Sequence record: DRR723986_623
DNA length: 64,000 bases
Strand: one strand, 5' to 3'
Each line of letters opens with the position of its first letter. Position 1 is the first letter of the stretch. Position numbers and translations under genes: made by a program. Positions 4,348 through 23,777 of the stretch are shown piece by piece. The notes under the pieces were generated by a model. It saw only the letters and a list, made by a program, of their open reading frames with translations. It was not told where the DNA came from and did not search any database.

Positions 4348-4444
4348 GCTCAGCCACGGGCAAAGTTAGCGATGTTACCGATGTTATTGCCCTTTGGCCG
4401 CATGCGGGCTGTGGAGAAAACCCCAGAAGCGTGTCTGAGACCTT

Positions 4445-5225: not shown

Positions 5226-5312
5226 ACCTTTTTGTCTGAAGTCGGACTACGGGTGGTAAGGGAACTCTGACTTTAGCCAAGCCTCATCTGAATGTCTCAA
5301 CCACTTCCCGCA

Positions 5313-8300
5313 TCACTTCACCACCTTCTCCTCAAATCCCAGCGTATTGGCGTTCTCGATCAGGGTCCGGACCTTTCCGCGATCGAGCCCGGATGAAACC
5401 TCAGCGTCAATTTCAAGGCGCAGGGTAACGTCGGCTCCTGGGAGGGTGGTCAGCTGTTCGATGATGGCTTCCACGATCTGTCCCATATCCCGGGCTGGCC
5501 GGTCCTGGGATAGCAACACGGAACCAATAAAGCGGGTCGGCTTGGTTTCAACAGGTGCCTCGAGCAGAGTTCCACCGCCGAGCGTTGGATGTTGACCGCC
5601 GATGGGCGTTGCACCTTCTTCCCATCCCGACCCGGTAACGGTGTTACCGCCAAACCCTGTCGTGTCGGGAGCTTCCGCCGGCTTCGGACGATGGGCTTCG
5701 GCGACGTCCGGGCGGATGATGACGCTCTCGCTATCGATTGTGACCAACGCAGAGCCGCTTTGGTCGATCGCCAAACCTTCATAGGTCTCGCTTGCCGGGT
5801 CGAAGCGCTCAGCATAGGTGAATTTGCCGCCGACCAGACCGGAAATGGCCGCCTGCACCGCCTTGATCAGGGCGTCGCGGTTTTTGAGGCGCGGCAGATA
5901 AGGATAGCGATTGACGTATTCCCAGACGTCTTTCAGATGCAGGTGCGGCTTGTCGTGCCAGACAAAGGCCTCCAGCTTGCCATTCAGACGGTTGGGGCCG
6001 ATCTCCGGGAACAGCGCTTCTTCTGCGACGAGCTTCTGGCTTGCCTTGAATAGCAGGCCATCCTGGGCAGCAAGCTTTGCAGACGAGAACTCGACATCAG
6101 TCTGTGCGCTTTCCTGGTAAGGGTAGATGAGATAGCACCATGCCTCTTTGAGGCGTGTCTTCACCGTATCCTCAGCCTCGCGCTGTTTGTCTTTCGCCAT
6201 CGCGAGCTGACTGGCTTTGAGATCTAAACGGCCGGTTTCGGCATCACGCAGAATGTGGCCCCAGGCCATCTTTACGCGCATCGCATCCGACAGGAGGTCA
6301 AGCTGCCGTTTGTCGGCTGCAAGAAACACTAGCGTGTTGCGATAGACCCGTGGAGTGCTGCCACGTTGCATGAAGATGTCTTTTGCCAATACCGCAGCGT
6401 CAGAGCCGTCGCGGCCAGCATGCGGGTGCGCAACTCCCAAAACAACGGCGCGAACACCGCCCGGCTCATCTGGAACATCCGCAGAGCTGTCTGGCGCAAC
6501 CTGAACCGTTTCGAAGTGCCCCCGGTCCCCAAGTCCGTTGATGTAGACGCCGAGCGCCTTGTCGATCTCATTCAGGACAAGTGCTTCTTCAAGCTGGCTT
6601 GCACGGTCGGCGGCTGTTCTGTTGAGGCTCGCAGCTGTTGAATACCAGTGGCGCCCGTTATCGGCATGCATGAACCGGGCCTGGTTCGACAGCCGTCTCA
6701 GGGCATCGCTGAATGTGGCGATCCGCTCGCCAGGCTGCACGACCCCGAGATTGATCCTCTTGTCGTCAAGCCCTGCATTCTGCTGGCCTTCCAGCGGGGC
6801 CGTCCCCATGAAGACGGTTCGGGCGACCCGACGCGTGGCAGAGTAGCGGTTCAGCGTGGGCGCGCTTTGGTCGATCCGGTAAGGCACGGAATCGGTGCCG
6901 TCGATGTCGCCGGCGATGATGTTCTGCCATTGGACGGGCAGATAATGAAGCAACTCCGATTCAACACGGGATGCGCCAATGGCGACACTGCCAGGCATGA
7001 TCATGACCGAGGGATCACCTGCCATCCAGAGCTCGTGAATTACCTGAGCCATGAACCGCAACACGCCCCGGGTGCGCTGAAATTTATCCAGAGTGCCCCA
7101 AGTCGTATAGAGCTGATCGAATAGCTCCGGATGGATGGGATAGGCCTTTTCCAGCTTCCGGCGGTAGTCCTCTTCGGTGCAGGATTTTGGAAATTCGTTG
7201 GTGTTGTCTCTGTAGAGCGCAGCAAACTTTTTCAGCGTGTTGTCGCGATGACGGTAGTTCTCGCCCGAGATTTCTTTGAACAGGCGCCTACGGACGATCT
7301 CGTAGCTTTCTTCCTGGCTTGCCGGGCGCCAGGAGCTCTCCACGCGGCTGAAGGTCTGCTTCAGGCGTTCAAGAGCTTCCTGGCCGCCTTCGCCGCCAAC
7401 TTCGATCTGGGACGCCGGCAGCGACGCCACCAGCAACGTGCCTGGGCTGGCCTTCACGGCTTCGGTCAGGGACTGAACAAACGAAATGTTGGAGTCGAAC
7501 GAGCCTGACGGCAGTCCGTCCCGCTTGTAGATCTGCCGGAGATACGCCACCCACTCATCGATCAGAATCAGGCAGGGCGCACATTTGCGGAAGAGATCTT
7601 CCAGAAGGTTCGATCCGGGCGCGATGCCATCCCGGTCGTGCTCAGCGACGAGTGCGTAGCCATCTTCTCCGCCAAGCTGATAGGCCAGCTCACCCCAGGT
7701 CGTGCGGATCTCGCGGCCGTAGTCCTTTTGACGGGCGGCGGTGTCCGCCGGGCCATAAGAGGTGCCGACAAGAACGGCGCGGTTAATCGGGGCAGGGACG
7801 TCCAGCCCCGCTCCGGAAAGCAACTGGTCCAGCCCTGGCAGATCGGCGACCTGCGTTCCGCCTGCCATATGGTAGAGCGCTAACATGGAGTGGGTCTTGC
7901 CACCGCCGAAATTGGTCTGCAATTCGACGACCGGATCGCCTCCTTGCTGCGACAACCGCTTGGCAGCGCCGACAAGAAGACTGCTGAGCCCGTCGGTCAG
8001 ATAGGTGCGGCTGAAGAATTCGCGGGCGTCACGGTATTCAACCGGCGCGCTGCCATTGTGAACCTTGGCAAGATCCGCGGCGAACTCGGCCTGCTGGAAT
8101 TCGCCTGTGGCCACGTCCTGGTGCGGCTCAACCACCTCGCGCCAGGGTTTCAGACCGGCTTCGGTTTCCGTGGCGATGGCCGTTGCCTGGCTTCGCTTGC
8201 GGTCCTCATTGCGGGCAAGCTCGGCAAACTTGGTTCTGAGGATCGCCTCGCGCATCTTGCCGATCTCGGCTGCGCTGTCACCGGCACTGACCGCTTCCAG

Positions 8301-8651
8301 GAGCCGGCGCATGGAATCGAGCGCGCGCTCGGCATCGTCATAGGTGAACTTGCCGTCATGGGCGAGTTTGTTGCGGGCATCAACCAGCTCATTGACGATG
8401 GACCTATGTGTCCGATCCAGCGAATCCCGGAAGCAGTCGTTCCAGAAGCGTTCCATGGTCTTCAGCAGCTTCTGGGTGTCGAAATGGATTTCCTTTTCGA
8501 AATCCCGGCGCCAGTCCGGAAACCGGTCCAGCAGCTCCTTTGACCAGCCATCACCAAGTTTTGCCTTCAGTTCGCGCAGGATGAAGGGCTGAAGCCCTTC
8601 CTGCATATGCTCCATGCCTTCAAAAACATATTGGCGCGCGGTCTTGGCCAT
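5313..8651 (-). CDS. Swt1-like HEPN domain fused to DUF499 AAA+ ATPase
   Basis: N-terminal RNKLAH (HEPN R-X4-H); LKPWREVVEPH.DV..G, FAADL, Walker A LQTNFGGGKTH, Walker B LILIDEW, AYPIHPE, FQRTRGVLR. Confidence 0.9.
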   Translation of the reverse strand: MAKTARQYVFEGMEHMQEGLQPFILRELKAKLGDGWSKELLDRFPDWRRDFEKEIHFDTQKLLKTMERFWNDCFRDSLDRTHRSIVNELVDARNKLAHDGKFTYDDAERALDSMRRLLEAVSAGDSAAEIGKMREAILRTKFAELARNEDRKRSQATAIATETEAGLKPWREVVEPHQDVATGEFQQAEFAADLAKVHNGSAPVEYRDAREFFSRTYLTDGLSSLLVGAAKRLSQQGGDPVVELQTNFGGGKTHSMLALYHMAGGTQVADLPGLDQLLSGAGLDVPAPINRAVLVGTSYGPADTAARQKDYGREIRTTWGELAYQLGGEDGYALVAEHDRDGIAPGSNLLEDLFRKCAPCLILIDEWVAYLRQIYKRDGLPSGSFDSNISFVQSLTEAVKASPGTLLVASLPASQIEVGGEGGQEALERLKQTFSRVESSWRPASQEESYEIVRRRLFKEISGENYRHRDNTLKKFAALYRDNTNEFPKSCTEEDYRRKLEKAYPIHPELFDQLYTTWGTLDKFQRTRGVLRFMAQVIHELWMAGDPSVMIMPGSVAIGASRVESELLHYLPVQWQNIIAGDIDGTDSVPYRIDQSAPTLNRYSATRRVARTVFMGTAPLEGQQNAGLDDKRINLGVVQPGERIATFSDALRRLSNQARFMHADNGRHWYSTAASLNRTAADRASQLEEALVLNEIDKALGVYINGLGDRGHFETVQVAPDSSADVPDEPGGVRAVVLGVAHPHAGRDGSDAAVLAKDIFMQRGSTPRVYRNTLVFLAADKRQLDLLSDAMRVKMAWGHILRDAETGRLDLKASQLAMAKDKQREAEDTVKTRLKEAWCYLIYPYQESAQTDVEFSSAKLAAQDGLLFKASQKLVAEEALFPEIGPNRLNGKLEAFVWHDKPHLHLKDVWEYVNRYPYLPRLKNRDALIKAVQAAISGLVGGKFTYAERFDPASETYEGLAIDQSGSALVTIDSESVIIRPDVAEAHRPKPAEAPDTTGFGGNTVTGSGWEEGATPIGGQHPTLGGGTLLEAPVETKPTRFIGSVLLSQDRPARDMGQIVEAIIEQLTTLPGADVTLRLEIDAEVSSGLDRGKVRTLIENANTLGFEEKVVK

Positions 8652-8719
8652 CCTGAATTCCCGGTCGTTTCAAATCGTTGGTATGATTGCGAAAAGTTGC
8701 AATATCAGTTCGTTGCACG

Positions 8720-9085
8720 TCAGGACTTCGTGGTCCAGACATATTCGTAGGCTAGGCCACTGATGCTGCCGGAGCGAACTTTTGCGACAAGACCTTCATC
8801 CGGAACGGACTTTGCAAAGACGGCAATGTCATAGGCCTTCAGGTAAGGCTGGCCGTGAGGCTTCTTGTCCTTGTGCTTCTGGCAGACCTTCACTGTGGCA
8901 ATGAACCGGGTTCCGATCGGAAACATCTCGCGCAGCTTCCGCGGAAACTCGACACGTGTTTCTGCCCGAAAGCCGGTGAGAGGACGCACCCGAGGACGGG
9001 AGACACTGCTGTCAAGGCAAGTCTCCAGATCAATGTTGCCGAAGAACCGGCCCACATACTGTTCGAGATCCTCTGTTTTCTGCAT
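8720..9085 (-). CDS. Hypothetical protein, beta-rich (possible OB-like fold)
   Basis: 121-aa ORF co-oriented inside the operon, filling the gap between the methylase and DUF499 genes. Confidence 0.7.
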   Translation of the reverse strand: MQKTEDLEQYVGRFFGNIDLETCLDSSVSRPRVRPLTGFRAETRVEFPRKLREMFPIGTRFIATVKVCQKHKDKKPHGQPYLKAYDIAVFAKSVPDEGLVAKVRSGSISGLAYEYVWTTKS

Positions 9086-9122
9086 GACGTCTCACCCCGC
9101 CGTATCTTTCTTTGATCGCGCC

Positions 9123-12059
9123 TCAAACGTCCATCCGGGTCTGAACTTCGCCATCACCCAGGCGAATTGTAGCGGCCTGGCGGGTCAGTTCGGTCCAGAC
9201 GGCGATCAAGCCGTTATAGGCGGTCGCTTCCTTGGCATCCTTCCGTTTGTTGGAGCAGATGTCATAGAGGTAGTAGGCGAGGTCCTTGACCGCCTCGGCC
9301 TTGTCGCTGCCGATCTTCTTCAAAAGTACTGCGGCTTCGTACTCGCCTTCGTTTTCCAGGACCCGGATCAGATGCTGGCAGCATTCCCAGATGGTCAGGT
9401 GATCGTCTGTCGTTGAATCCCATTTTGTCTCGAGCTCTTCGCGCTTCAGGATCCGAACCTTGCCGGCGGCACTGTCGACGATGCCCGCGTGTTTGACGCT
9501 TTCGACGGAGATGCCTCGTGCACGGGCAAGGTTGTCAGCGGCGCCATAGTCGCCCTTGTCGTTGCCGAACTGCTCGAACCAGGTCGCAGCAAAGCGCGTG
9601 TCTGCATCAAACTCGCCGTGGAGGTGGTTCAAATAATCGTCCAGTTCGGCGTTGATCAGCTGGAGCGCGGTCTTGACCATCATGGGGCTGTCATCTGCTT
9701 CAAGCACAGCTGCATAGCGGGAAAAGATTCCCATTCCGGGACCGATAGCCGATTGGGGCATGTCGGCCGGAGCGATGTTGGCGGCCAGAAGTTCGGCGAT
9801 AGCGGAAGGAAGTTCGCGTTTTAGGGCTCGGATGAACTCGGCCCGGGTGATAACCGCGGGCGAGGCTTCCTTCTTGCGGCAAACGAGTACGACTGAATTT
9901 GCGAGGGCGTTAGTACCGGAAGCAACCATGCGGTTCGCCATTTCTGTGCGCATTGGCCAAGTGCCAACAACCGCATAACCAGCCTCAACGACCGCTTGAA
10001 GGAACGTGGCCCAGCCTGTTGAGCTCACCCCCTCTTGCGCAACCTCACTTTGCTTAAAGGCATAATAGATCGTAGCAGGCGCCACATCAGACGACTTTTC
10101 AGCCATGTTCTTGATGGCCCGCCCCATGCCGTCCAAAAAGAAGGCTTCGGCGGATTCACGACCTCCATGCCTGAATGCAGTGGCTACCAGTTCTTCTGCC
10201 TTTGGAGTTGCCAGAACACCGAACAGTTCGGGAAAGAACGGTTTAAGAGAGCCCCTCATCCAGCAAAAGAAAAAGTCCGACAAATCAGCGTAACCGATAT
10301 TGTCGTAGTACGGAGGGTCAGTTGAAATAACCGAAAGCTTAGGAATTTCGACTGACTGAGCATCAAACTGAACTTCGCGTCCTCTATTGCTCGGAACAAA
10401 TCGCTCGACAACCTTATAAACCCATTCAACATTCGCAAGGAAGTTGCCTGTCGCATCAGAGAATGGATTGCCCTCCGCAAAATCCCAAGTCATCGGCAAG
10501 GCTTGACGAGCAAACGTGTTTCTAAGCGCCTCCATCTTCGGGGAAGAGTCCCACGAGCAAATCGTGGAACCGCGGTCAGCAGACCGGTTGATTGCAAACG
10601 CCAAATAGACACAAATGGCGTCGGCATAGGCGGAAGCACTATGACCATCTGCGGCCAAAGACACTGAGTCATTATTCCAACCCGAAGCAACCGCGTCGGC
10701 GACAACCTTCTCCTTTACTTCATGGAGAACACCGGTCAGCGTCTTCAAGGAAATAACCTGCCTGTCGGTGAACAGCTTTCCCCAGTTTTCAAGGCCGAAG
10801 GCGTGACATGTTCCACCTGTCAACCGTGAAGGTGTTGCACCTTGCAAATTGGTCTCCCGAAAGTCCTTGGCTGACTCCTGAAAACCCTCGACCTGCGCCG
10901 CAAATATCTGAGCTGAATCTGGGGCAACATATTGCCGGCCATTCTTTCCTTCCGCAACCACGGCAATTAGCACTTCGCCCATCTCCCCAGCTTGGGCTTT
11001 CTCCCGCACATAATCGGCGGTGATTGCCCCACCCGACATTAAGCAATGAAAATTTGCGCGCGCTGACTTTGTGCCGTCTTTGGCTTTTGCCAGCTCTGCC
11101 TTCGTGCCTCCGCGTCGAACACGATAGTTGATCGTCTTCACAACTCTATCAACAATAGGTTCGATCCAAGCCTCCCTGCCAGGTTTCGAACCGAGAAGAA
11201 AACTTGACGCAATAGGCACATGCACATTGGCAAAGGCCGGGTCCGGGCTCGGCACGGTTCTCGACCAGACCCATGCGATCACTGTTGCCTTGCCCCCCCC
11301 ATACTCCTTCGGAAGGTCCACCTGCGGGTAAAGATGCCCAACGCGCTCCCACGCTCTTTCGCGCATCCATTTGCCGTAGTATTTCACGTCCTCGGCCAGC
11401 CCCTCGGCGTTGCGATAGAACTGTCGATCTTTGACACCCGGATGGATCGGCGACTGATCCTTGAACTTGGGCGGAAACTCGATCATCGCCTTGCCGATCA
11501 TCACCGCAACCGGGTTGAGATCAGACCCATATGCCGGCAGGCCCAGACGCTGCGCTTCCAGCGGGATCGAGCCGCCACCCGAGAACGGATCATAGACCGG
11601 CGGCAGTTCGCCTCCGCAGCTTCGTCGGATCTCTGCCCGCGCGCGCTCCAGTACCTCTTCGTTGGTGGAGTTTTCCCACTTCACCAGATCTTCAATGATG
11701 GCAAAAAGCCGCTTGCGCTCGATATCCGCTGCGCAGTCTTCCAAAGTCGGTTCCGGACCGGCGAGATCCGGATCCTCCGCGGCGGCCTCGCGCTCTTCCC
11801 AAAGCTTGTGTTTGGCGTCCAGGTCTGCCTCGGCCTTGGCCCGGACCTTCGGATCGGCAAGAAGCTGATCGACATATTCCGACGGATCATCGACCAGTTG
11901 CGCAAACAGCACCGCCCGGCAAGCCGCCAGCGGCCGGCGCGCCCACCACAGATGCAGTGTCGACGGATGCCCGTGCCGGATCGACTTCTCCCGCGCCGAC
12001 GCCGCATTGATCGCCTCCAGCGGCAGCGCGACCTCGATGAGTTTCTTTTTGTAAGTCAT
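9123..12059 (-). CDS. DUF1156 adenine-specific DNA methyltransferase
   Basis: KKLIEVALPLEAIN..S.REKS.RHGHPSTLHLWWARRPLAACRA (DUF1156), motif I DPFSGGGSIP, motif IV TDPPYYDN. Start placed at MTYKKK (12059). Confidence 0.93.
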   Translation of the reverse strand: MTYKKKLIEVALPLEAINAASAREKSIRHGHPSTLHLWWARRPLAACRAVLFAQLVDDPSEYVDQLLADPKVRAKAEADLDAKHKLWEEREAAAEDPDLAGPEPTLEDCAADIERKRLFAIIEDLVKWENSTNEEVLERARAEIRRSCGGELPPVYDPFSGGGSIPLEAQRLGLPAYGSDLNPVAVMIGKAMIEFPPKFKDQSPIHPGVKDRQFYRNAEGLAEDVKYYGKWMRERAWERVGHLYPQVDLPKEYGGGKATVIAWVWSRTVPSPDPAFANVHVPIASSFLLGSKPGREAWIEPIVDRVVKTINYRVRRGGTKAELAKAKDGTKSARANFHCLMSGGAITADYVREKAQAGEMGEVLIAVVAEGKNGRQYVAPDSAQIFAAQVEGFQESAKDFRETNLQGATPSRLTGGTCHAFGLENWGKLFTDRQVISLKTLTGVLHEVKEKVVADAVASGWNNDSVSLAADGHSASAYADAICVYLAFAINRSADRGSTICSWDSSPKMEALRNTFARQALPMTWDFAEGNPFSDATGNFLANVEWVYKVVERFVPSNRGREVQFDAQSVEIPKLSVISTDPPYYDNIGYADLSDFFFCWMRGSLKPFFPELFGVLATPKAEELVATAFRHGGRESAEAFFLDGMGRAIKNMAEKSSDVAPATIYYAFKQSEVAQEGVSSTGWATFLQAVVEAGYAVVGTWPMRTEMANRMVASGTNALANSVVLVCRKKEASPAVITRAEFIRALKRELPSAIAELLAANIAPADMPQSAIGPGMGIFSRYAAVLEADDSPMMVKTALQLINAELDDYLNHLHGEFDADTRFAATWFEQFGNDKGDYGAADNLARARGISVESVKHAGIVDSAAGKVRILKREELETKWDSTTDDHLTIWECCQHLIRVLENEGEYEAAVLLKKIGSDKAEAVKDLAYYLYDICSNKRKDAKEATAYNGLIAVWTELTRQAATIRLGDGEVQTRMDV

Positions 12060-12253
12060 GTCAGATTCAATCATCTTGAGCTTGAGGCAGGAACAGACCA
12101 AACATTCCAACGGATAGGTTCTTCTCTGCCCCGTCTCCTAGCATCTGTTCGAATTCTCCAACAGCTCGGATCGGTGAAACATCTCGCATCATTTCAAATG
12201 TTTCTCCTATAGGGATGCCGAACGCTCTTTCGGTAGTTGGCATGAGAGGTCGC

Positions 12254-12820
12254 TTAGCGCTTGTTTCCTGTAGCAAAATAAAGAGCTGTGTGTTTCCCGC
12301 TCCGAGAAGGGAGTAAGGCTGCAGAAAATGTCGGTGGACAGAAGCATCCAAAGACCTGGCAGGCACGCGCGACCGGAATGGCTGTCTTTGGCCTGGATTT
12401 GAGGAGGGCAGGAACACTTGTGTCCAATGTCAATGTCGCCGTTTCCGCGGGGCCGCGAAAGCTGGTTCCCAGATCTGCGGCAGAACAAAACCAACTGTGT
12501 CTGATAATGCAGTCTACGGACGCCGCTTCTTTTGAGTCGGCAGCTTCCGGAAAAACATAGAAAGTGCTGTTTGGGTACCGGGAGGCGATGCGTTTGAGAT
12601 TGCGCCATTGAAATTTTTCGAGACGAAATCTGTCTCGGCTCTTTGCTTTAAACTGAAACAAAACGAGGTGGCCGCCGATTTTCAACATCGTGTCAATGCC
12701 CGAGATACGTTCTTGAGCCTGCGTCATTCCAAACCACTGCGGGTTTCGGTTGAACGGCATCAGTGCGGCCGACAATGCGGCGCAGAACCGTACCTCGAAG
12801 CTTTTTTCAGCGAACCTCAC
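12254..12820 (-). CDS. Putative PD-(D/E)XK-fold nuclease-like protein, possibly truncated by a frameshift
   Basis: E...(QERISG)ID...LFQFK pattern resembles restriction-endonuclease D...QxK motifs; GTG start. Confidence 0.55.
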   Translation of the reverse strand: MRFAEKSFEVRFCAALSAALMPFNRNPQWFGMTQAQERISGIDTMLKIGGHLVLFQFKAKSRDRFRLEKFQWRNLKRIASRYPNSTFYVFPEAADSKEAASVDCIIRHSWFCSAADLGTSFRGPAETATLTLDTSVPALLKSRPKTAIPVARACQVFGCFCPPTFSAALLPSRSGKHTALYFATGNKR

Positions 12821-12981
12821 GTGTTCGCTCCAGGTAGAGATTCTCTTGAAAAGGGCTTATTGAAGTAGCCCGGCATGGCCTTCTTTGCGAACGGCACCTT
12901 GACGCCCTCGAGCAGCCGAAAGCTCGTTGTCTTGAGTACAATGGCGACTTTGATGAGTTTCTTTTTATGGTTGCCTGTCAT
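12817..12981 (-). CDS. 54-aa ORF whose N-terminus is a degenerate copy of the DUF1156 methylase start
   Basis: Manual translation MTGNHKKKLIKVAIVLKTTS... versus methylase MTYKKKLIEVALPLEAIN. It overlaps the sacsin-like gene stop and ends in a GTGA overlap with the 12820 start. It is below the ORF-track size cutoff. Confidence 0.55.
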   Translation of the reverse strand: MTGNHKKKLIKVAIVLKTTSFRLLEGVKVPFAKKAMPGYFNKPFSRESLPGANT

Positions 12982-15900: not shown

Positions 15901-17224
15901 TCTGATGATCCACGTCCTCGACCCAGCCCCAACTTTTGATCTTTTGCAGGTTCCTGTAAGTGATCTCGTGAGAAATCGGGGGGCGACTGCTTTCATCAAA
16001 TGCGCTGATAACAAAATCTCTTTCCCAGACTTCGAACAGTTCCCGTGGTAAGGCTACTGCTGTATTCAGGGGTGTTAAAAAACCTTGATCCGTAAGTAAA
16101 ATAGGTGAGTCATCTTGCGTGATGCTGTTCTCGAAGGCCAGCTCGACATCCGTAGCGCACTTCGATTCGAGGGTGGTGGCATCTCTATCGACATCGGGAA
16201 GCAGGTCATAGGCCGGCGCACGTTCTTTGGATGAAAACTCAGTTTTGCCCAGCCATGCGATCATGGTCTCTCCGGCGAGGGTACCGAGGCATTGCAGAAA
16301 AAAACGGTTTGTGGGGCTTTGTGCAGGATCCTTGATCTTGTATCGGGCTGCGTCCTGCAGAAATGGAGCGTTGCATGCAAACGGCAAATCAGTGGTCACG
16401 CCTGTTGGGAGAACAACAAAAAATCTCCCTTCACTGCCCAGTACCAACTCAACCTCGCAAGGGGGGAGTTCGAGATCCTGAGGATCAGCGAGCATCCGTT
16501 CCTCGCGGATTTCATTTAGGGAATCTTCCGGAAATGGAACGGGCTTGGACCGGACGAACAGGTGTTTCTTCGATTGGTTTCCGTCGAGAGAAAACCATTC
16601 GCTGTTTGCTACCGGACCGCTTCCTCCGCTGGTCCAATGGACCAGGCTCTCACCAATTTTCAGACGTCTGATATTTCGAAAAAAGAGCAGTGAGACAGGG
16701 CTCTTGAGCCACTCGGAAAAGCTGTCTTCCACGGCGTGATGGAGGTGCTCGTCTTTCAATTGGACACGTATGATCGTTGTTTTTTCTGGTGTGCCCGATC
16801 GCGCCACCCATCGAGGTTCCGTAAAACGCTGCCTATTGAATTGCACCGACAACGAAGGTGTTAAGAGATCAACGGTGTCTCCAAGACTGAAGGTGCTTTT
16901 GAAACCAATCCCTCTGAACCCAATCGTGTGAAGTGCACGTTTGTTTGAGTAGCCGAAACGGCACAACGAGGCGAAATGCTCTTCTGCAAAATCTTCCCCG
17001 TTATGACGGAAAATGAAAGCACCATCTTCAACTTTCACTTCCGCCTCGACTGCGCCGGCATCGTCTGCATTTTGCAGAAGCTCTGAGAGCACATGCCGAG
17101 GGCTTTGAACTTGACGAAACAGCTGATGCCAAGGTGCGGCAAGTTCAAGATCAGCTTCCAACTGATCCCAACGTCTTGCCGCCTTATCGCGAACGGCTTC
17201 GAAATAGTCCGGCTTTAGGCTCAT
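12965..17224 (-). CDS. Large sacsin-like GHKL (HATPase) ATPase protein
   Basis: ELLQNADDA, FRHNGEDF, IGFRGIGFKSTF, LPFACNAPF; 1419 aa; ATGA overlap with the helicase gene. Confidence 0.85.
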   Translation of the reverse strand: MSLKPDYFEAVRDKAARRWDQLEADLELAAPWHQLFRQVQSPRHVLSELLQNADDAGAVEAEVKVEDGAFIFRHNGEDFAEEHFASLCRFGYSNKRALHTIGFRGIGFKSTFSLGDTVDLLTPSLSVQFNRQRFTEPRWVARSGTPEKTTIIRVQLKDEHLHHAVEDSFSEWLKSPVSLLFFRNIRRLKIGESLVHWTSGGSGPVANSEWFSLDGNQSKKHLFVRSKPVPFPEDSLNEIREERMLADPQDLELPPCEVELVLGSEGRFFVVLPTGVTTDLPFACNAPFLQDAARYKIKDPAQSPTNRFFLQCLGTLAGETMIAWLGKTEFSSKERAPAYDLLPDVDRDATTLESKCATDVELAFENSITQDDSPILLTDQGFLTPLNTAVALPRELFEVWERDFVISAFDESSRPPISHEITYRNLQKIKSWGWVEDVDHQNVLDTLQEKKFPSPQNWKKLLTLWYYVGRLVESYEYDCTESSLHIVPVQGKDTLHCAAEVVRLGEKRILPSEDDWKFLGDHLSVLSQHWLRYLTEQRRNGERAKDKFLNKIVETADTLLSEIGLDEPSDTGIVIDLVAKNFFGSDTVLLHDMVRFTQIAAKLGAQIGDHFKYATQDRKLRGLGHSILFDNDGSLEIILPDDWAERCLLHGDYTKHFKCCSKEEWENWISSGRSGLLSFVPFTETYSRYWTRRSIDDELSKRAYQGPFSPRYSHPSFSLTDWDFEQTIWQHWEKLEEELSSIWAVVAERILSETFSRTSHATATVQEQASNGHTSRCVRTGLAPTWVMRLRNKPCLKDAHGMHRKPEELLMRAPQTEALLDVEPFIHGTLDTERNRPLLKLLGVSDRPTGPEKLLLRLKALASVEIPPAHEVDKWYRRLDQLVDGCSTEMFHKIRSDFEKKELILSEKGSWENKYGIFLSSDAEEVPDAPLVRSSVRDLTLWRKIGVADQPTPDLAIEWLSNLPSSKVLDADDIRRVRGLLGRYPTRIWEECGHWLNLAGEWATIETLDYSLAMQTLTSWGNLHQWAKQKTADFRTVPGAVTLTEPFTTLSPLASVIDDQFHRKPSAQGAGESLDWLRELGLQLARVVLEDEEEASRIRTLAARLCETRWITTSNLEIIPYIDGKPAGTPRRAEALWLDGSLYVEDKPLAKLARIVAQELGKTFRRPDIIDAIKLCFDRPPGFIKSYMDENFDLVPAERVELVKVPSSTVVPASSANPEEDTDEQSSVNTPVSPFVEEAAPNEQTVISDVEGPEPAKTIEQSYPGPGASASTTSTPTTPPQQSVREPTARPAKPSLMERFAVSRGFRKSNDGHFSNAAQEVIGKAHGSLFPWELRDAAGTVIKRYLPREHCLEREPLQMEADVWGLLEHEADTYSLVLIDPTEIPIEVSGNQLTNLRESGVIQLHPSTYRLVMDHDRQP

Positions 17225-20200
17225 GCTGGAGGCTGACCGAATTGCAGTAGGTGCTTAAGATCAAATTGCTGAGCCGTCACCCCAAAAGCCGGTTCGACGT
17301 CAAATGGCTGGCGGATATAGATGGGCGCTTGAGCAAAGCCTTTAGAAACGTGCACGATAGCCAGGATGAAATCGTCGGGCTTGTTCAAGCTGGTAATGAT
17401 CTCATTGCGCGTGACCATTATTGACGTCGCGCCTTCGACCCTACCTTTCACTTCAATAAAACGAATATGATCGGTTGCTGGATCGTATGAAGCAATGTCA
17501 TAGCCGACTTTTTGCGCCGAAACGTCATCTGGCCGATTGCCCAGTTCGCGTTCGGCTGCCATGACCGCTTCCATTGCTTTCAGCTCGATTTCACGACGCG
17601 CAGCCGGGTCCTCGCTGAAGCCAGTACCGGTATTCTTGGTGTCGGTTGGCATGTTTTCGCGCAACAGTCCGCTAGGAACTACAATCATTCCACCTCGCAC
17701 GCGTGGCGGCTGTCCTGAAATAAACCTCTCTTGTTCTATCAGCTGACAGCGTCGCTTCAGTCTTTCCGCCAAGTCCTCTGCCCGGCGCTGGGCGTTTTGC
17801 CAATTGAGCCGGGTCTTCTTGCCAGCTCGTTCTTCTTCCCTCAATTCGTTGGCACGACTGTCCCAGTGATTAATTTCCTTATTGAGACGTGTCTTTACCT
17901 CGCGTTCCACCTTTTCGATCTCAGGCAGACGTCGCTTGCGCACCTCTGCTACATGAGACTGAGCCAGTTCGACAGTCGCAAACTGAACGACCTTTTTTTC
18001 AAGGTCGGCACGAAGCCATTCCTCATTCAAATTGGTTTCAACGCTCTCCTTTTCTTCGACAGACGCCGGGCGAAGGTTCAGGTGTGGAGCGATACCAGCG
18101 TTTGTAATGTTGCCGTCTTTGTCGACGGCCGCGAACTGAAGCTTTTGAGAGACGATATTGGTATTACCGGTCGTGGTCGGGCGGCCGTCCTGTACGCTAT
18201 GTTCCAAAAGAAAGAGGGCTGAAAGGTCCTGGCCGTCATCAGTGTCATCAACCAGGACAGCGCCCTGCTTCATCAGATGGTCGTTCTGTTCGCGGATCAG
18301 ACTGATTACTGCGTCAAGAAGCGGATGCCCTGGGTAAACGAACGAAGCAACAGGCTGCTGATTGATCTTGCTTTTTTCGAAACAGATCCGTTCGTATTTC
18401 TTTTGCAAGGGTGCGCCTGACCCAACCTGCCGATCTCTCTCGCGCACAGTTAAGGGGACATGAGAAATTTCCCAGCGCCCTTCTTCCCGGGGCTTAATCT
18501 TACCGCCCAGATGCTGGAAGGCCTCTACAAAAAAGCTTTGAATATGGTGGGGTTGCAGGCGCTGGGCATCGGCTCGTTCCATTTCAAGACGGAGCTCGTG
18601 AACACGCGCTTCAGGCATGGTGTCGTTGGTAAGTTGCCGCTTGCGCAAGAGCTGTAGCAAATGACTCTGGTCGACTGCGCCATCCACTGCTTGGAAAAGA
18701 CGAGCCTTTACGTCCTCCTGCTCGCCATACTGGATCGCATCAAACAACAGGTCCTTGAGAGCGCGCTCTTCGAAGAGTTCGCCAAGAACATCATATACTC
18801 GGCCCCCGAGCGCTTCTCTTGCTGCTTCCAGCTTCTCAAGCAGGCGAGCGTATACCTCGCCCTCTCGTGAGTCTTTGGCGACCAGGTTCCAGAGATGGCA
18901 CACTTCTGTCTGGCCAATACGATGAATACGTCCAAAGCGCTGTTCGATCTTGTTTGGATTCCACGGCAGATCGTAGTTCACCATCAAGTGCCCGCGTTGA
19001 AGGTTGACACCTTCGCCGGCCGCGTCGTTGGCGATCAGAACGAGGAGATCGCGATCCTGCATAAAGCGCTCGACCACTTTCCGGCGGTCCTCACGCGACA
19101 CGCCACCGTGGATCACATCGACGGCTTCGGGTTTCCCGATACGTGCAATGACTTTCTGCCTGAGATATTCGAGAGTGTCCTTGGGCTCTGTGAAGATAAT
19201 CAGCTTACGACGGTAACCTTCAGAGTCGAGCATGAGGTCATCATCAAGGATTTTGTCCAGCTGCTGCCATTTGGTATCATTGCCTGACCGCAAGACACCG
19301 AGGGCCTTATCTTCAAGGCTCTTTAGCGTCTCGATTTCCAGTTCCAGCTGCTCAACCGTTTCTGCACTGGTTGCACCCGTAGAAATCAGCTCCTCCAAAT
19401 CGTCCACTTCGTCCTGGCCATATTCATCCAGATTCCGCAGCATTTCTTCATTCAAAGAAGTGTCCGACAAGGAGGGGGAAATTCCCCGAGCAGCAAGGCG
19501 GGCTTCTGCGAGCTCGTTCTCGAGGCGCTCGCGACGGCGCTTGAGTGACTGGTAGATTGCGGCAGGACTTGATGCGAGACGGCGCTGAAGAATCTGAAGT
19601 GCGAAGCCAACATTGTTTCGCTTTTTACCGTCCTGTTCAGCGAAGCGTTGTACGCGGTTCATTTCATTCCGGACATAATCAGTGACCGCGGTATATAACG
19701 CAGCTTCTTCGGTCGAGAGCTCGTATTTCACAGTGTAGGCACGACGTTCGGGAAAGAGTGGCCGCCCGTCGAAGCGTAGCAATTCTTCCTTTGTGAGGCG
19801 GCGCATCATGTCTTCCACGTCAGCGACGTGAACACCATCGCGAAAGCGGCCTTCAAAACGGTCGCCATCCAACAACGCCATAAAGAGTTGGAAGTCTCTT
19901 TCGTGCCCATTGTGTGGGGTTGCCGACATAAGCAGGAAATGACGGCAAACGCGGCTCAGCTGCTGACCGAGTTGATAGCGCTTTGTGTATTTGACTTCAT
20001 TTCCAAAATACGTTGCAGACATTCTGTGGGCTTCGTCTGCAATAATCAGATCCCACTCCGTCGATGAATTTAGCTTGTCCTGAAGATCCTCATTGCGTGA
20101 CAGCACATCGAGGCGTGCTATCAAGCGGTTCTTGTCATTGAACGGATTTCCGGATCGTGAGCTCTCGATCATATCTTTGGTGAGAATGTCGAATTCGAGG

Positions 20201-20727
20201 TCGAACTTCTCGCCGAGTTCATCTTGCCATTGTTCGACGAGGCTACCAGGGGCAACTACCAGGCAACGTTCTAGATCGCTTCTGGCAACGAGTTCTTTGA
20301 TGAAGAGGCCCGCCATGATTGTCTTACCTGCACCCGGATCATCGGCGAGGAGGAAGCGCAATGGCTGACGAGGAAGCATTTCGCCATAAACTGCCGAAAT
20401 TTGGTGCGGGAGCGGATCTACCAGACTTGTGTGGATGGCGAGATAAGGGTCAAAAAAGTGAGCAAGCTTGATCCGGTTTGCTTCCGTCACCAAACGGAGA
20501 AGCCCTCCATCAGCGTCGAAGGACCAATTGCGACCTCGGTTCTCGACCTTCAGCCTGTACTCGTCGTCTCGGTAAAGAGTTGTCTCCGCAGGAGCCCCTG
20601 CAGCGGTGCGATAAACAACATTGATGGCCTGGTCACCAATCCATTCGACGGACAGGACATCTACGGCACTGCCGGGCACGACGCCGGTCAAGGAGCACCC
20701 GGGTTTGATGAGCTCTAACTTGTCCAA
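17221..20727 (-). CDS. SNF2-family helicase with C-terminal DUF3883 (NO VEIN-type) nuclease domain
   Basis: LLADDPGAGKT, DEAH, SATPH, EGVNLQ, QRFGRIHRIGQ; C-terminal GYDI...RFIEVKGR. Confidence 0.93.
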   Translation of the reverse strand: MDKLELIKPGCSLTGVVPGSAVDVLSVEWIGDQAINVVYRTAAGAPAETTLYRDDEYRLKVENRGRNWSFDADGGLLRLVTEANRIKLAHFFDPYLAIHTSLVDPLPHQISAVYGEMLPRQPLRFLLADDPGAGKTIMAGLFIKELVARSDLERCLVVAPGSLVEQWQDELGEKFDLEFDILTKDMIESSRSGNPFNDKNRLIARLDVLSRNEDLQDKLNSSTEWDLIIADEAHRMSATYFGNEVKYTKRYQLGQQLSRVCRHFLLMSATPHNGHERDFQLFMALLDGDRFEGRFRDGVHVADVEDMMRRLTKEELLRFDGRPLFPERRAYTVKYELSTEEAALYTAVTDYVRNEMNRVQRFAEQDGKKRNNVGFALQILQRRLASSPAAIYQSLKRRRERLENELAEARLAARGISPSLSDTSLNEEMLRNLDEYGQDEVDDLEELISTGATSAETVEQLELEIETLKSLEDKALGVLRSGNDTKWQQLDKILDDDLMLDSEGYRRKLIIFTEPKDTLEYLRQKVIARIGKPEAVDVIHGGVSREDRRKVVERFMQDRDLLVLIANDAAGEGVNLQRGHLMVNYDLPWNPNKIEQRFGRIHRIGQTEVCHLWNLVAKDSREGEVYARLLEKLEAAREALGGRVYDVLGELFEERALKDLLFDAIQYGEQEDVKARLFQAVDGAVDQSHLLQLLRKRQLTNDTMPEARVHELRLEMERADAQRLQPHHIQSFFVEAFQHLGGKIKPREEGRWEISHVPLTVRERDRQVGSGAPLQKKYERICFEKSKINQQPVASFVYPGHPLLDAVISLIREQNDHLMKQGAVLVDDTDDGQDLSALFLLEHSVQDGRPTTTGNTNIVSQKLQFAAVDKDGNITNAGIAPHLNLRPASVEEKESVETNLNEEWLRADLEKKVVQFATVELAQSHVAEVRKRRLPEIEKVEREVKTRLNKEINHWDSRANELREEERAGKKTRLNWQNAQRRAEDLAERLKRRCQLIEQERFISGQPPRVRGGMIVVPSGLLRENMPTDTKNTGTGFSEDPAARREIELKAMEAVMAAERELGNRPDDVSAQKVGYDIASYDPATDHIRFIEVKGRVEGATSIMVTRNEIITSLNKPDDFILAIVHVSKGFAQAPIYIRQPFDVEPAFGVTAQQFDLKHLLQFGQPPA

Positions 20728-20750
20728 TTTCCATGCACTCCGATTGATAT

Positions 20751-21116
20751 CTATTTGGGTTCGTAAGCCGGTAGGTGAAGCTTCGTCTTATTGAAACGAA
20801 TGAGCAGTTCTTTGCCTGCAACGGAAAGGCCGAGCTTGTCCGACTGTATTGTTGCTCCGAGTTTCTTCAGTGTTTTGGTGAGTTCAGCCAGCCGCCAGGC
20901 GTCAACCGATATCTCGGTAGCCCAACTCTGCGTGCCTATCACGAGCGTGGACATGACTGGTGTTTGAACAAAAACACCTTCAGGATCAGGTGAAAGAAGC
21001 GTGTCTTTAGGGATATTGCCTCGGACACCTCTCGGGCTCCGTTTCATGGCTGGAAGTCTGCAGACCGCTTCTTGGAAGTCCAAGGCAGAGACTTCGATCT
21101 CTTTCTGGTCATGCAT
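20751..21116 (-). CDS. Hypothetical protein resembling a single sliding-clamp domain
   Basis: First ORF of the minus-strand operon, 23 bp upstream of the helicase; ATG 21116 preferred over TTG 21179. The fold assignment is by eye only. Confidence 0.6.
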   Translation of the reverse strand: MHDQKEIEVSALDFQEAVCRLPAMKRSPRGVRGNIPKDTLLSPDPEGVFVQTPVMSTLVIGTQSWATEISVDAWRLAELTKTLKKLGATIQSDKLGLSVAGKELLIRFNKTKLHLPAYEPK

Positions 21117-21495
21117 TTTGTGCCCCCCCCCCAAGTAGCAGTGCTGAATGTCAGCCCGGCATTTCGCCTCGCGTTTCAACGCAAGGTCGTACTAACCTAG
21201 GTCTATCTTCTCGATAGCTAGTTTTCAACGTGAGATGGGGGATGGCATTGGGACACACTGTGCTAAATTGGACCGGACAGTATGAAGTTCATTGTCAGAA
21301 CGGCATGCTTGCTAACGGCAGAAAATGCTGAGTCATGTCCGCAGAAGGAGAAGCGGGTGTGAAACAACAGTCACGTTGCCTGGTGGCTTTTCAATGAGAT
21401 TGCCAACGGTTCCTCCTTTGCAAAACCGAGTCTATTGCCGTCGCATTGGTCCTTCCAGATCAGCCGGAAATATGCGGCAATAGAGGTCCCGAATA

Positions 21496-23696: not shown

Positions 23697-23777
23697 AGCC
23701 TGCCGGCGTGAATGAGAGCTCGGTGCAACATTTTTCTGATATGTGACTGCGGTTCCTTTTTTCCTCATTTGAAAATT

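What the first reader, a model, noticed from the sequence alone, without database searches (positions are those of the whole stretch)
5313..21116. Expanded DUF499-DUF1156-SNF2 defence operon with a HEPN effector and an embedded sacsin-like ATPase
Seen: a ~16-kb co-oriented operon of small protein, SNF2-DUF3883, GHKL ATPase, PD-(D/E)XK-like, DUF1156 methylase, small protein and Swt1-HEPN-DUF499, with intact helicase, DPPY, Walker and R-X4-H motifs. Established: DUF499 ATPase + DUF1156 methylase + SNF2 helicase-nuclease is the core of 'restriction-like'/BREX-related anti-phage systems; the tested form, as I recall, has DUF3780 and a PLD nuclease. Neither is recognisable here. Inference: a distinct subtype combining methylation-based self/non-self discrimination, DUF3883 DNase restriction and a HEPN RNase backup (dormancy or abortive infection), with four accessory genes in variable slots.
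Basis: partly seen in the sequence, partly recalled or inferred. Interest (0 to 1): 0.85.

Follow-up and report, generated by a model that had tools for sequence, protein, structure and literature searches.

The report
Hma defence operon with conserved GHKL partner
This is a mobile-island copy of the already described Hma (type-1 BREX-related) anti-phage operon; its one less ordinary feature is a large Tiamat-like ATPase gene that in relatives almost always sits directly behind the helicase gene.

Summary
The seven co-oriented minus-strand genes at 5313-21116 exist, and the helicase, DPPY, Walker and R-x4-H motifs are intact. The core is not a new subtype. PADLOC profiles identify HmaA (SNF2-DUF3883), HmaB (DUF1156 methylase) and HmaC (HEPN-DUF499) at 965-1594 bits. 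This architecture, including the HEPN fusion, was described in 2013, named Hma in 2021 and renamed type-1 BR in 2026. That last paper finds the HEPN-fused form in 1370 of 2446 taxa. Embedded guest genes are also a published Hma hallmark.

What I add concerns the 1419-aa "sacsin-like" protein. It is a Tiamat-like GHKL ATPase without a recognisable NOV_C nuclease. In 75 of its 80 best genomic relatives, which include archaea, it lies next to hmaA, usually with overlapping stop and start. Known guest systems occupy a separate slot after it. It therefore looks like an Hma-dependent fourth component, not a random guest. A 2026 Tiamat preprint may already list this neighbourhood (its "Type II-C").

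The "PD-(D/E)XK-like" gene is frameshifted and its fold is unassigned. The two other small genes belong to real but unnamed families that are absent from all relatives examined. The operon sits on a ~23.8-kb integrase-bearing island.

The parts
17221..20727 (-). hmaA: SNF2 helicase with a C-terminal NOV_C/DUF3883 PD-(D/E)xK nuclease (nuclease domain about 17344-17589)
   Evidence: PADLOC HmaA PDLC00659, 1594 bits, residues 1-1162. Pfam SNF2-rel_dom, Helicase_C and NOV_C. E1059, D1077 and E1092-V-K1094 are invariant in 39 sequences. DEAH in 60 of 60 relatives and E[VIL]KG in 60 of 60.
12965..17224 (-). Tiamat-like (sacsin-type) GHKL ATPase, 1419 aa. Its start overlaps the hmaA stop by 4 nt. ATPase about 16193-17107; low-complexity linker about residues 1195-1284; C-terminal domain 12968-13372.
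   Evidence: PADLOC TmtA profiles match only the N-terminal part (best 1.6e-44 for residues 40-344; another covers 47-599). NCBIfam P_loop_sacsin. No Pfam hit in residues 342-1419 at E<=10, apart from one chance-level match (BPTI_nem, E 0.16). More than 1658 homologues; the 120 listed are 1271-1446 aa. Next to hmaA in 75 of 80 relatives.
12067..12820 (-). Frameshifted gene of an unnamed ~250-aa family (pieces 12254-12820 and 12067-~12275).
   Evidence: 79 homologue clusters, all 'hypothetical'. The alignment shows divergence after residue ~182. The DNA at ~12274 lacks about 11 nt relative to the reading of P0121, inferred from the protein. The profile hits both pieces. No fold assignment.
12944..12966 (-). 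23-nt remnant copy of the hmaB 5' end, lying across the GHKL stop codon. It marks the ancestral GHKL/hmaB junction.
   Evidence: Direct repeat D6, 12028-12050 and 12944-12966, 91% identical, spacing 916 nt. The remnant reads MTGNHKKKLIKVA against hmaB MTYKKKLIEVA.
9123..12074 (-). hmaB: DUF1156 N6-adenine methyltransferase. The likely start is ATG 12074 or 12059; the longest ORF starts at TTG 12110.
   Evidence: PADLOC HmaB PDLC00660, 1180 bits. Pfam DUF1156. DPPY and DPFSGGG present. [DN]PP[YF] in 47 of 47 relatives.
8720..9085 (-). 121-aa protein of an unnamed conserved family, in the hmaB-hmaC slot
   Evidence: 175 homologue clusters, 56-94% identical among the 120 listed, no names. No Pfam, PADLOC, NCBIfam or PHROG hit. 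Atlas neighbours are all 'hypothetical'. Absent from 83 related loci.
5313..8651 (-). hmaC: N-terminal Swt1-type HEPN (about 8286-8618) fused to a DUF499 AAA+ ATPase
   Evidence: PADLOC HmaC PDLC00662, 965 bits, residues 167-1108. Pfam HEPN_Swt1 and DUF499. R93-x4-H98. R[ND]xxxH in 48 of 48 relatives and the Walker A motif in 43 of 43.
20751..21116 (-). 121-aa first gene of the operon, from a small unnamed family with a possible beta-clamp-domain-like fold
   Evidence: 44 representative clusters at E<=1e-3. The Atlas's own model (pLDDT 0.68) matches DNA_pol3_beta-domain clusters at TM 0.72-0.76. No family hit. Absent from 83 related loci.
19..23953 (.). Integrative island carrying the operon, bounded by 87-nt imperfect direct repeats (19-105 and 23867-23953). 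It also carries an integrase (203-1408), a Toprim primase-like gene (2336-3244) and an AAA_25 gene (3241-4347).
   Evidence: Repeats D1 (86% identical) and D4 (25-nt arm-like copies at 146-170 and 23775-23799). Pfam and PHROG hits. GC is 0.52-0.54 at 12-24 kb, against 0.55-0.61 in every 2-kb window from 24 kb to the end.

Best explanation
This is an Hma (type-1 BREX-related) restriction-modification-like anti-phage operon carried on a ~23.8-kb integrative island. It belongs to a four-gene variant: hmaA - GHKL ATPase - hmaB - hmaC.

Inferred roles from the families:
- HmaB methylates adenines in host DNA as the self mark.
- HmaC, an ORC/STAND-like DUF499 ATPase, scans for or senses invader DNA. 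Its N-terminal HEPN RNase is a last-resort abortive effector.
- HmaA translocates on DNA and nicks it with its DUF3883 nuclease. Of all these activities, only this one has been shown experimentally, and that was in a Halomonas homologue.

My own inference concerns the Tiamat-like GHKL protein. It is not an independent guest. It is an Hma-dependent partner that is co-translated with HmaA. I propose it is an ATP-gated dimerising clamp of the GHL type. It has no recognisable catalytic nuclease of its own. It would capture or license DNA for HmaA's helicase-nickase. In that sense, HmaA plus the GHKL protein would do in two genes what canonical Tiamat (GHKL + middle region + NOV_C nuclease) does in one.

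The three small genes are lineage-specific add-ons in the variable slots, and one of them is inactivated.
For: Identity as Hma:
- Full-length PADLOC matches for all three core genes, with matching Pfam domains.
- All catalytic motifs are present here.
- In relatives the motifs are kept in 48 of 48 (HEPN), 47 of 47 ([DN]PP[YF]), 43 of 43 (Walker A), 60 of 60 (DEAH), 60 of 60 (E[VIL]KG) and 65 of 65 (GHKL N-box).

GHKL protein as a partner of HmaA:
- Of the 80 best genome loci, out of 461 relatives found, 75 have hmaA. Two of the other five (L057, L062) have hmaC or hmaB beside the GHKL gene.
- The loci span Proteobacteria, Chloroflexi, Planctomycetes, Acidobacteria, Bacillota, Actinomycetota and Methanobacteriota.
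- The hmaA-to-GHKL gap is at most 60 nt in 64 of 72 loci. It is an inferred 4-nt overlap in 42 of 72, as it is in the window.
- Linkage survives changed gene orders (L049, L060, L064, L062, L080).
- Insertions instead lie after the GHKL gene. The GHKL-to-hmaB gap exceeds 300 nt in 24 of 58 loci. Those gaps hold known guests: IetAS, CBASS, PDC-M38 and GmrSD-like genes (54 of 108 candidate ORFs were scanned).
- All 4 plasmid records with a GHKL relative also carry hmaA.
- GHKL and HmaA distances correlate: Mantel r = 0.68, p = 2e-4, on 35 loci plus the window.

No own nuclease:
- No NOV_C or other Pfam hit beyond the ATPase.
- A profile comparison of its C-terminal domain with HmaA's NOV_C gave probability 0.3%.

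Literature:
- HmaA protects against T4 and needs its helicase and nickase residues (PMC11232893, abstract).
[quoted passage not shown] Tiamat-like proteins without a nuclease neighbour helicase-nuclease fusions and methylases (preprint 10.64898/2026.09.30.754977; abstract and sections 21 and 23 read).
Against: - The GHKL protein is optional for Hma. Only 4 of 69 plasmid records with a near-full-length hmaA have it.
- A 76%-identical hmaA on a Rhodobacter plasmid is followed by a 210-aa gene and then hmaB, with no GHKL gene.
- The window's GHKL protein is only 47-57% identical to those of loci whose HmaA is 72-78% identical. GHKL distances track HmaA (r = 0.68) much less well than HmaC does (r = 0.97). 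So it is exchanged between systems or evolves faster.
- Three of the 80 loci have no Hma gene. L043 pairs the GHKL gene with a UvrD-like helicase, a Cas4-like gene and a type III methylase. L067 pairs hmaA-GHKL with a type I methylase.
- The C-terminal domain keeps conserved acidic and His residues. Its weak fold hits are nucleases. An unconventional nuclease activity therefore cannot be excluded.
- In Halomonas, phage grown with HmaB overexpression did not change its infectivity (PMC11232893, section 18). The self-marking role is unproven.
- No experiment exists for this locus.
Confidence: 0.6

Rival explanations
1. The GHKL protein is a self-contained Tiamat-type defence gene. It is merely parked in Hma's known insertion hotspot and works on its own as a second layer.
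For: - 931 of 1485 Hma systems carry embedded genes, many of them known defences (preprint 10.1101/2024.01.29.577857, passages).
- Canonical Tiamat is a single-gene system (recalled; PADLOC lists only TmtA).
- Hma exists without the GHKL gene at 76% HmaA identity.
- GHKL co-divergence with HmaA is modest.
- The C-terminal domain has weak nuclease-like fold hits.
Against: - 75 of 80 relatives are hmaA-adjacent, mostly with overlapping or near-abutting stop and start. Known guests such as Septu also occur widely on their own.
- The true guests occupy a different slot.
- No recognisable effector domain.
- No PADLOC candidate (HEC/PDC) profile matches it.
Confidence: 0.3
2. One reading: a new, distinct subtype of DUF499-DUF1156-SNF2 systems, defined by the HEPN effector, the DUF3883 DNase and four variable accessory genes.
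For: DUF3780 and the PLD nuclease are indeed absent, and the NCBIfam equivalogs of that form are far below cut-off.
Against: - The HEPN-DUF499 + methylase + SNF2-DUF3883 operon was described in 2013 (PMC3710099).
- It was named Hma in 2021 (PMC8565338).
- It was classed as type-1 BR, with the HEPN fusion in 1370 of 2446 taxa (PMC12839542).
- PADLOC profiles match it full length.
Confidence: 0.05
3. The cluster is not defence. It would be a DNA-repair, chromatin or element-maintenance module of the integrative island.
For: It sits on a mobile island with replication genes. GHKL and SNF2 proteins also act in repair and chromatin.
Against: - An HmaA homologue protects against T4 (PMC11232893, abstract).
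- Relatives host known defence guests inside the operon.
- WYL (BrxR-like) regulators lie upstream in 21 of 59 relatives.
Confidence: 0.03

Closest known systems
Hma system (PADLOC; Payne 2021), also called type-1 BREX-related (BR) system (NAR 2026, PMC12839542); first noted as the Ava_2192-type R-M operon (Anantharaman 2013)
   Same: All three core genes with the same domain architecture, including the N-terminal Swt1-type HEPN on the DUF499 ATPase and DUF3883 on the SNF2 helicase. Co-oriented, with embedded genes between the core genes.
   Different: It carries the GHKL ATPase directly after hmaA. None of the main texts of the three Hma/BR papers I searched mentions a GHKL, MORC, sacsin, Hsp90 or Tiamat component. 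It has three small unnamed genes. It lacks the WYL regulator that lies upstream in 21 of 59 relatives.
Tiamat (TmtA) and 'Tiamat-like Type II' proteins (preprint 10.64898/2026.09.30.754977)
   Same: An N-terminal sacsin/Hsp90-like GHKL ATPase with the catalytic Glu and Asn. Homology to TmtA profiles runs to about residue 600. It is ~1400 aa long, with a small C-terminal domain on a flexible linker. The preprint says the Tiamat nuclease is often tethered in this way.
   Different: No NOV_C/DUF3883 nuclease and no Pfam DUF3684 hit. It is not stand-alone. The preprint's 'Type II-C' neighbourhood (helicase-nuclease plus methylase) may be this arrangement, but I could not see its Figure 6 or its data files.
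Type-2 BR system: DUF499 + DUF1156 + PLD-helicase + DUF3780. I recall the name 'Gao RL' for it; that name comes from no call.
   Same: Homologous ATPase, methylase and helicase cores.
   Different: No DUF3780 and no HKD/PLD nuclease. NCBIfam equivalog scores are 7- to 8-fold below cut-off.
Prokaryotic MORC/paraMORC GHKL ATPases in R-M-like operons. I saw Iyer 2008 only as a reference-list entry; the content is recalled, and the Tiamat preprint discusses it.
   Same: A GHKL ATPase genetically linked to a helicase, a nuclease and a DNA methylase.
   Different: A different GHKL clade. The only PDB sequence hits are weak: MORC3 E 0.023 and sacsin E 0.79. The methylase here is an adenine methylase.

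Membership tests
Hma / type-1 BR | SNF2 helicase fused to a C-terminal DUF3883/NOV_C nuclease (HmaA) | tested here: met
   PADLOC HmaA 1594 bits, full length. Pfam NOV_C 6.9e-21. Catalytic E, D and ExK invariant.
Hma / type-1 BR | DUF1156 N6-adenine methyltransferase (HmaB) | tested here: met
   PADLOC HmaB 1180 bits. DUF1156. DPPY and motif I present.
Hma / type-1 BR | DUF499 AAA+ ATPase (HmaC), often with an N-terminal HEPN | tested here: met
   PADLOC HmaC 965 bits. HEPN_Swt1 and DUF499. Walker A and B. R-x4-H.
Hma / type-1 BR | All hma genes on one strand, with at most three embedded genes between neighbours (rule quoted in preprint 10.1101/2024.01.29.577857) | tested here: met
   Two genes lie between hmaA and hmaB and one between hmaB and hmaC, all on the minus strand.
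Hma / type-1 BR | Protection against phage; hmaB-dependent DNA methylation | not testable with these tools
   Needs a phage challenge and a methylome.
Type-2 BR (the form with DUF3780 and PLD) | Stand-alone DUF3780 gene and an HKD/PLD nuclease on the helicase | tested here: not met
   No such Pfam hit in any of the 7 operon ORFs. NCBIfam phospholipD_antiphage scores 160.7 against a cut-off of 1100 and matches the helicase part only. DUF499_antiphage scores 168.6 against 1200. DUF1156_antiphage scores 135.3 against 1000.
Tiamat (TmtA) | N-terminal GHKL (Hsp90/sacsin-like) ATPase with a catalytic Glu | tested here: met
   TmtA profiles up to 1.6e-44. P_loop_sacsin 73.5 bits against a cut-off of 50. 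E48 and N52 invariant in 15 sequences. N-box in 65 of 65 relatives.
Tiamat (TmtA) | Central DUF3684 region | tested here: inconclusive
   No Pfam hit in residues 342-1419 at E<=10, apart from one chance-level match (BPTI_nem, E 0.16). One TmtA profile does align residues 47-599.
Tiamat (TmtA) | C-terminal NOV_C/DUF3883 PD-(D/E)xK nuclease | tested here: not met
   No NOV_C hit. hhalign of the C-terminal domain against HmaA NOV_C gives probability 0.3%. Foldseek finds only weak nuclease-fold hits (best E 0.015). No conserved D...ExK.
Tiamat (TmtA) | Stand-alone single-gene system | tested here: not met
   Embedded behind hmaA here and in 75 of 80 relatives.
BREX (type 3) / DISARM | PglZ (BREX); DrmA, DrmB and DrmC (DISARM) | tested here: not met
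   No such hits among the operon ORFs. HmaA hits DrmD and BrxH profiles only as a related SNF2 helicase. NCBIfam DISARM_DrmD scores 380 against a cut-off of 610.

The most novel reading that the evidence does not exclude
The ~1400-aa sacsin/Tiamat-clade GHKL ATPase is an obligate, Hma-dependent subunit. It would be an ATP-gated clamp carrying a tethered, degenerate nuclease-like domain, and it would load, license or direct HmaA's SNF2-DUF3883 nickase. HmaA plus the GHKL protein would then be a 'Tiamat split over two genes'. Together with HmaB and HmaC they would define a four-component Hma subtype spread across bacteria and archaea. The main texts of the Hma/BR papers do not describe such a subtype.
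Probability: 0.35. Interest if true: 0.65.

Novelty: new variant of a known kind. Interest (0 to 1): 0.42.

Why it matters
The operon itself is ordinary. It is one more Hma / type-1 BR system on a mobile island.

The GHKL gene is worth a follow-up. Tiamat's mechanism is unsettled, and its relatives include plant NO VEIN and human sacsin. Here a nuclease-less Tiamat relative is genetically tied to one defined helicase-nickase, with its catalytic motifs conserved across phyla. That gives a simple genetic system to ask two things: what the GHKL module does when it carries no nuclease, and whether it acts through a partner helicase.

The result also refines 'guilt by embedding'. Not every gene inside Hma is a guest. 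One family behaves as a conditional core component.

Tried and rejected
1. Complex prediction with HmaA residues 310-1168 and the GHKL C-terminal domain: no verdict, score 0.00. The tool's own note says it did not use my alignments. This counts neither for nor against binding.
2. GHKL C-terminal domain as a diverged DUF3883: hhalign probability 0.3%. Rejected at this sensitivity.
3. PD-(D/E)xK fold for the 188-aa gene family: Foldseek against the PDB gave nothing better than E 0.1, and the weak hits were clamps and Hsp90. Unassigned.
4. Context of the two small-gene families through plasmids: tblastn found no match. A profile search of 83 loci found hits only in the window.
Exact-sequence look-ups and source names were therefore not obtained.
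The one supplement file of PMC11232893 held 178 'HATPase' strings. Both passages shown were HATPase_c_4, which is a different family.
7. Promoter and terminator scan of 4900-21600: fewer sites than in shuffles.
8. Rfam on 1-26000 and a tRNA scan of the window: nothing. The island's integration target is not identified.
9. WYL regulator in the window: no tblastn hit better than E 0.15.
10. PDB sequence search with the GHKL profile: only weak N-terminal MORC3 and sacsin hits.

Full report
OBSERVATION

The window holds seven co-oriented minus-strand ORFs between 5313 and 21179. In the order they are transcribed:
- a small ORF, 20751-21179, with an ATG at 21116;
- a 1168-aa SNF2 protein, 17221-20727;
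- a 1419-aa GHKL protein, 12965-17224, whose start overlaps the previous stop by 4 nt;
- a 188-aa ORF, 12254-12820;
- a 995-aa DUF1156 protein, 9123-12110;
- a 121-aa ORF, 8720-9085;
- a 1112-aa HEPN-DUF499 protein, 5313-8651.

WHAT THE CORE IS

PADLOC profiles HmaA, HmaB and HmaC match at 1594, 1180 and 965 bits, essentially end to end. The NCBIfam equivalogs for the DUF3780/PLD form score 7- to 8-fold below their cut-offs.

The literature describes this operon already.
- Anantharaman et al. [quoted passage not shown]
- Payne et al. 2021 named the system Hma (PMC8565338, passages).
- Liu et al. 2024 showed that a Halomonas HmaA protects against T4 through its helicase and DUF3883 nickase. They found insertions in 66.5% of hma loci (PMC11232893, abstract and section 18).
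- Payne et al. 2024 found embedded genes in 931 of 1485 Hma systems (preprint 10.1101/2024.01.29.577857, passages).
- A 2026 NAR paper renames the system 'type-1 BR'. [quoted passage not shown]

Its mechanistic inference (methylation, DUF3883 DNase, HEPN backup) is already in print.

THE GHKL PROTEIN

It matches PADLOC TmtA (Tiamat) profiles only in its N-terminal part. The best hit is 1.6e-44 for residues 40-344, and one profile reaches residue 599. It also matches NCBIfam's sacsin-type ATP-binding domain. Pfam finds nothing in residues 342-1419 even at E<=10, apart from one chance-level match (BPTI_nem, E 0.16). So there is no DUF3684 and no NOV_C.

It belongs to a large family. More than 1658 homologues were found. 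The 120 listed are 1271-1446 aa long and 119 of them align over 99-100% of the query. The best hit is 95% identical, from Roseibium aggregatum.

With an alignment of 15 members (14 of the 120 listed hits plus the window) I scanned one genome per GTDB species. The scan found 461 relatives, and the best 80 loci were kept. A tblastn search with the window's proteins (E<=1e-4) gave these counts:
- hmaA in 75 of 80 loci;
- hmaB in 61 of 80;
- the hmaC core in 52 of 80;
- the HEPN part in 49 of 80;
- each of the three small genes and the divergent 302-aa ORF in 0 of 80.

Many loci end at contig edges, so the first four counts are lower bounds. Of the five loci without hmaA, two (L057, L062) have hmaC or hmaB beside the GHKL gene.

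The junctions are informative.
- hmaA to GHKL: at most 60 nt in 64 of 72 loci; an inferred 4-nt overlap in 42 of 72.
- GHKL to hmaB: more than 300 nt in 24 of 58 loci.
- hmaB to hmaC: at most 60 nt in 42 of 50 loci.

PADLOC scans of 54 of the 108 candidate ORFs from those gaps and from downstream regions show known guests in the GHKL-to-hmaB gap. These are IetAS (L034), CBASS with E1-E2 (L079), PDC-M38 (L007, L044) and GmrSD-like HEC-05/PDC-M55C (L051, L059, L070). The published 'embedding slot' thus lies after the GHKL gene, and the GHKL gene itself stays fixed to hmaA. Linkage also survives altered orders: divergent in L049, GHKL before hmaA in L060 and L064, and after hmaC in L062 and L080.

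Catalytic motifs of all four proteins are kept in essentially all relatives. GHKL and HmaA pairwise distances correlate (Mantel r = 0.68, p = 2e-4; 35 loci plus the window, those with all four proteins intact). This is far weaker than the HmaA-HmaC correlation (r = 0.97).

EVIDENCE THAT THE GHKL GENE IS OPTIONAL

In the plasmid collection, hmaA covers at least 80% of the query in 69 records. GHKL relatives occur in 4 records, and all 4 of those carry hmaA. A Rhodobacter plasmid has an HmaA 76% identical to the window's. It is followed by a 210-aa gene, hmaB and hmaC, with no GHKL gene. A Bradyrhizobium plasmid has three small genes between hmaA and the GHKL gene. L067 couples hmaA-GHKL to a type I methylase and specificity subunit. 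L043 couples the GHKL gene to a UvrD-like helicase, a Cas4-like gene and a type III methylase.

In short, this GHKL family is nearly always with Hma, but Hma is mostly without it. That is the behaviour of a dependent accessory module. It is not the behaviour of a universal core gene, nor of a free-standing guest.

THE C-TERMINAL DOMAIN OF THE GHKL PROTEIN

Residues 1285-1419 follow a ~90-residue low-complexity linker. An AF2 model was built from 48 sequences, which is 47 of the 60 loci with a complete domain plus the window. It is confident (pLDDT 88.5). Foldseek against the PDB gives no hit at E<=0.001. The weak top hits are PD-(D/E)xK-fold nucleases: NhoI at E 0.015, D212 at probability 0.98 and TM 0.49, and Hjc.

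A profile comparison with HmaA's NOV_C domain finds nothing (probability 0.3%). HmaA's NOV_C keeps E1059, D1077 and E1092-V-K1094 invariant. The conserved charged residues of the GHKL C-terminal domain are E1298, E1333, D/E1349-H1350, E1387 and R1410. They do not form an evident D...ExK pattern.

The Tiamat preprint states that Tiamat's nuclease is often tethered by a flexible linker and is predicted to dimerise (section 8). This domain is positionally equivalent to that nuclease. Its catalytic status is open, and I lean towards a degenerate, non-catalytic role.

MECHANISM

Shown elsewhere: HmaA defends against T4 through its helicase and nickase. [quoted passage not shown]

Inferred from the families: HmaB marks self DNA, HmaC senses or scans, and its HEPN is an abortive backup.

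My inference: the GHKL protein is an ATP-gated clamp acting with HmaA, and is probably made in step with it through coupled translation.

One caveat applies to the self-marking step. In the Halomonas study, overexpressing HmaB did not change the infectivity of the T4 phage produced (section 18).

THE SMALL GENES

The 188-aa ORF:
- It belongs to a ~250-aa family of 79 clusters. The named ones are mostly Alphaproteobacteria, and all are 'hypothetical'.
- The window's copy shifts frame after residue ~182, where a 99%-identical homologue reads on.
- The missing tail lies in ORF 12067-12417. Comparison with the homologue's protein suggests the DNA lacks about 11 nt. A family profile hits both pieces.
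- A model of an intact member was built from 52 of the 79 homologues (pLDDT 82.6). It has no convincing PDB match.
- Invariant residues include E5, E9, D43 and Q56-x-K58. The PD-(D/E)xK idea is therefore not excluded, but it is unsupported.

The 121-aa ORF has 175 homologue clusters and no annotation.

The first gene has 44 representative relatives. The Atlas's own model of it resembles one domain of the beta sliding clamp, at TM 0.72-0.76 with a model pLDDT of 0.68. This is a lead only.

None of the three families occurs in the 83 related loci.

Homologues of the 188-aa and 121-aa families co-occur elsewhere. Four contig lengths are shared between the two hit tables. In two named genomes the locus tags are two apart: REQ54_02099 and REQ54_02101, and LNKW23_44580 and LNKW23_44600. 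That is the same spacing as here, where hmaB lies between them. Whether the middle gene there is an hmaB could not be checked.

HISTORY OF THE LOCUS

A 23-nt copy of the hmaB 5' end sits right at the GHKL stop codon (12944-12966, against 12028-12050; 91% identical, 916 nt apart). It reads as a remnant hmaB start that overlaps the GHKL stop, as in relatives. The 188-aa gene therefore entered an ancestral GHKL/hmaB junction.

GC content steps from 0.53 (hmaA) and 0.52 (GHKL) to 0.56 (hmaB) and 0.60 (hmaC). In the 20 relatives checked, hmaA, GHKL and hmaC generally have similar GC. The operon may be a recombinant.

The operon lies on a ~23.8-kb element bounded by 87-nt imperfect direct repeats. 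The element carries an integrase, a primase-like gene and an AAA_25 gene.

NOVELTY

The core and the HEPN fusion are already known. Embedding is already known.

I searched the main texts of the three Hma/BR papers for GHKL, MORC, sacsin, Tiamat, Hsp90 and HATPase. None of these terms occurs. Full-text searches for DUF1156 with GHKL gave 0 papers. DUF499 with MORC gave only the 2013 HEPN paper.

The 2026 Tiamat preprint reports nuclease-less 'Type II' Tiamat-like proteins. Its 'Type II-C' neighbourhood has a helicase-nuclease and a methylase (section 23). This may be the same arrangement. I could not see its figures or data, nor the supplements of the NAR paper.

I rate the locus as a new variant of a known kind, of moderate interest.

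Noticed in passing
window 19-105 and 23867-23953; 146-170 and 23775-23799; 203-4347: The operon rides on a ~23.8-kb integrative element. The element has 87-nt imperfect direct repeats (86% identical) and 25-nt arm-like repeats just inside each end. It also carries a tyrosine integrase with an Arm-DNA-binding domain, a Toprim primase-like gene and an AAA_25 gene. No tRNA or Rfam RNA was found at the ends.
   Followed up: partly
window 21123-21132 (minus strand): A G10 run lies 6 nt upstream of the ATG of the operon's first gene. It is the only run of 9 or more G in 64 kb. This is not statistically unusual: 21 of 100 shuffles do as well. Its position would suit slipped-strand phase variation of the operon.
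   Followed up: partly
window 12944-12966 versus 12028-12050; GC of 5313-12074 versus 12965-20727: A remnant hmaB start overlaps the GHKL stop, and the real hmaB start lies 916 nt downstream. GC steps from 0.52-0.53 (hmaA, GHKL) to 0.56-0.60 (hmaB, hmaC), unlike most of the 20 relatives checked. This suggests an insertion or recombination joint inside the operon.
   Followed up: partly
window 20751-21116: The Atlas's own model of the first small protein resembles a single beta-sliding-clamp domain (TM 0.72-0.76 to DNA_pol3_beta clusters, some of them viral). The model pLDDT is only 0.68.
   Followed up: no
window 12067-12820 and 8720-9085; homologues P0142/P0211 and P0155/P0257: The two small-gene families that flank hmaB here also co-occur in other genomes. 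Their locus tags there are two apart (REQ54_02099 and _02101; LNKW23_44580 and _44600). This hints at a recurrent 'small gene - X - small gene' cassette. The identity of X was not checked.
   Followed up: partly
loci L001, L002, L005, L008, L010, L013, L017-L021, L023, L026, L027, L029, L031-L033, L036, L052, L058; L082, L083: A WYL-domain (BrxR-like) gene is the nearest co-oriented ORF upstream of hmaA in 21 of 59 relatives. I scanned 59 of 103 candidate upstream ORFs. The same gene is upstream in two plasmid loci. The window has none.
   Followed up: yes
L067:14365-19796; L043:14401-20441; L072:14224-17121: The hmaA-GHKL pair, or the GHKL gene alone, also occurs with other methylases. These are a type I MTase plus S subunit (L067), a type III MTase with a UvrD-like helicase and a Cas4-like gene (L043), and a mad2-like MTase (L072).
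   Followed up: partly
L081 (Burkholderia sp. PAMC 26561 plasmid), record 137658-141231: The hmaA next to the GHKL 'ATPase' gene matches in three pieces and has no CDS in the plasmid table, so it is probably disrupted. An ABC-three-component system lies upstream, and an AAA ATPase plus a UvrD-like pair lies downstream.
   Followed up: no
window 21496-25334: The ORFs at the right end of the island have no family. These include a divergent 302-aa ORF at 21496-22404. The one exception is a weak endolysin-like N-terminal hit for 22558-23199 (phrog_894, 2e-08).
   Followed up: no
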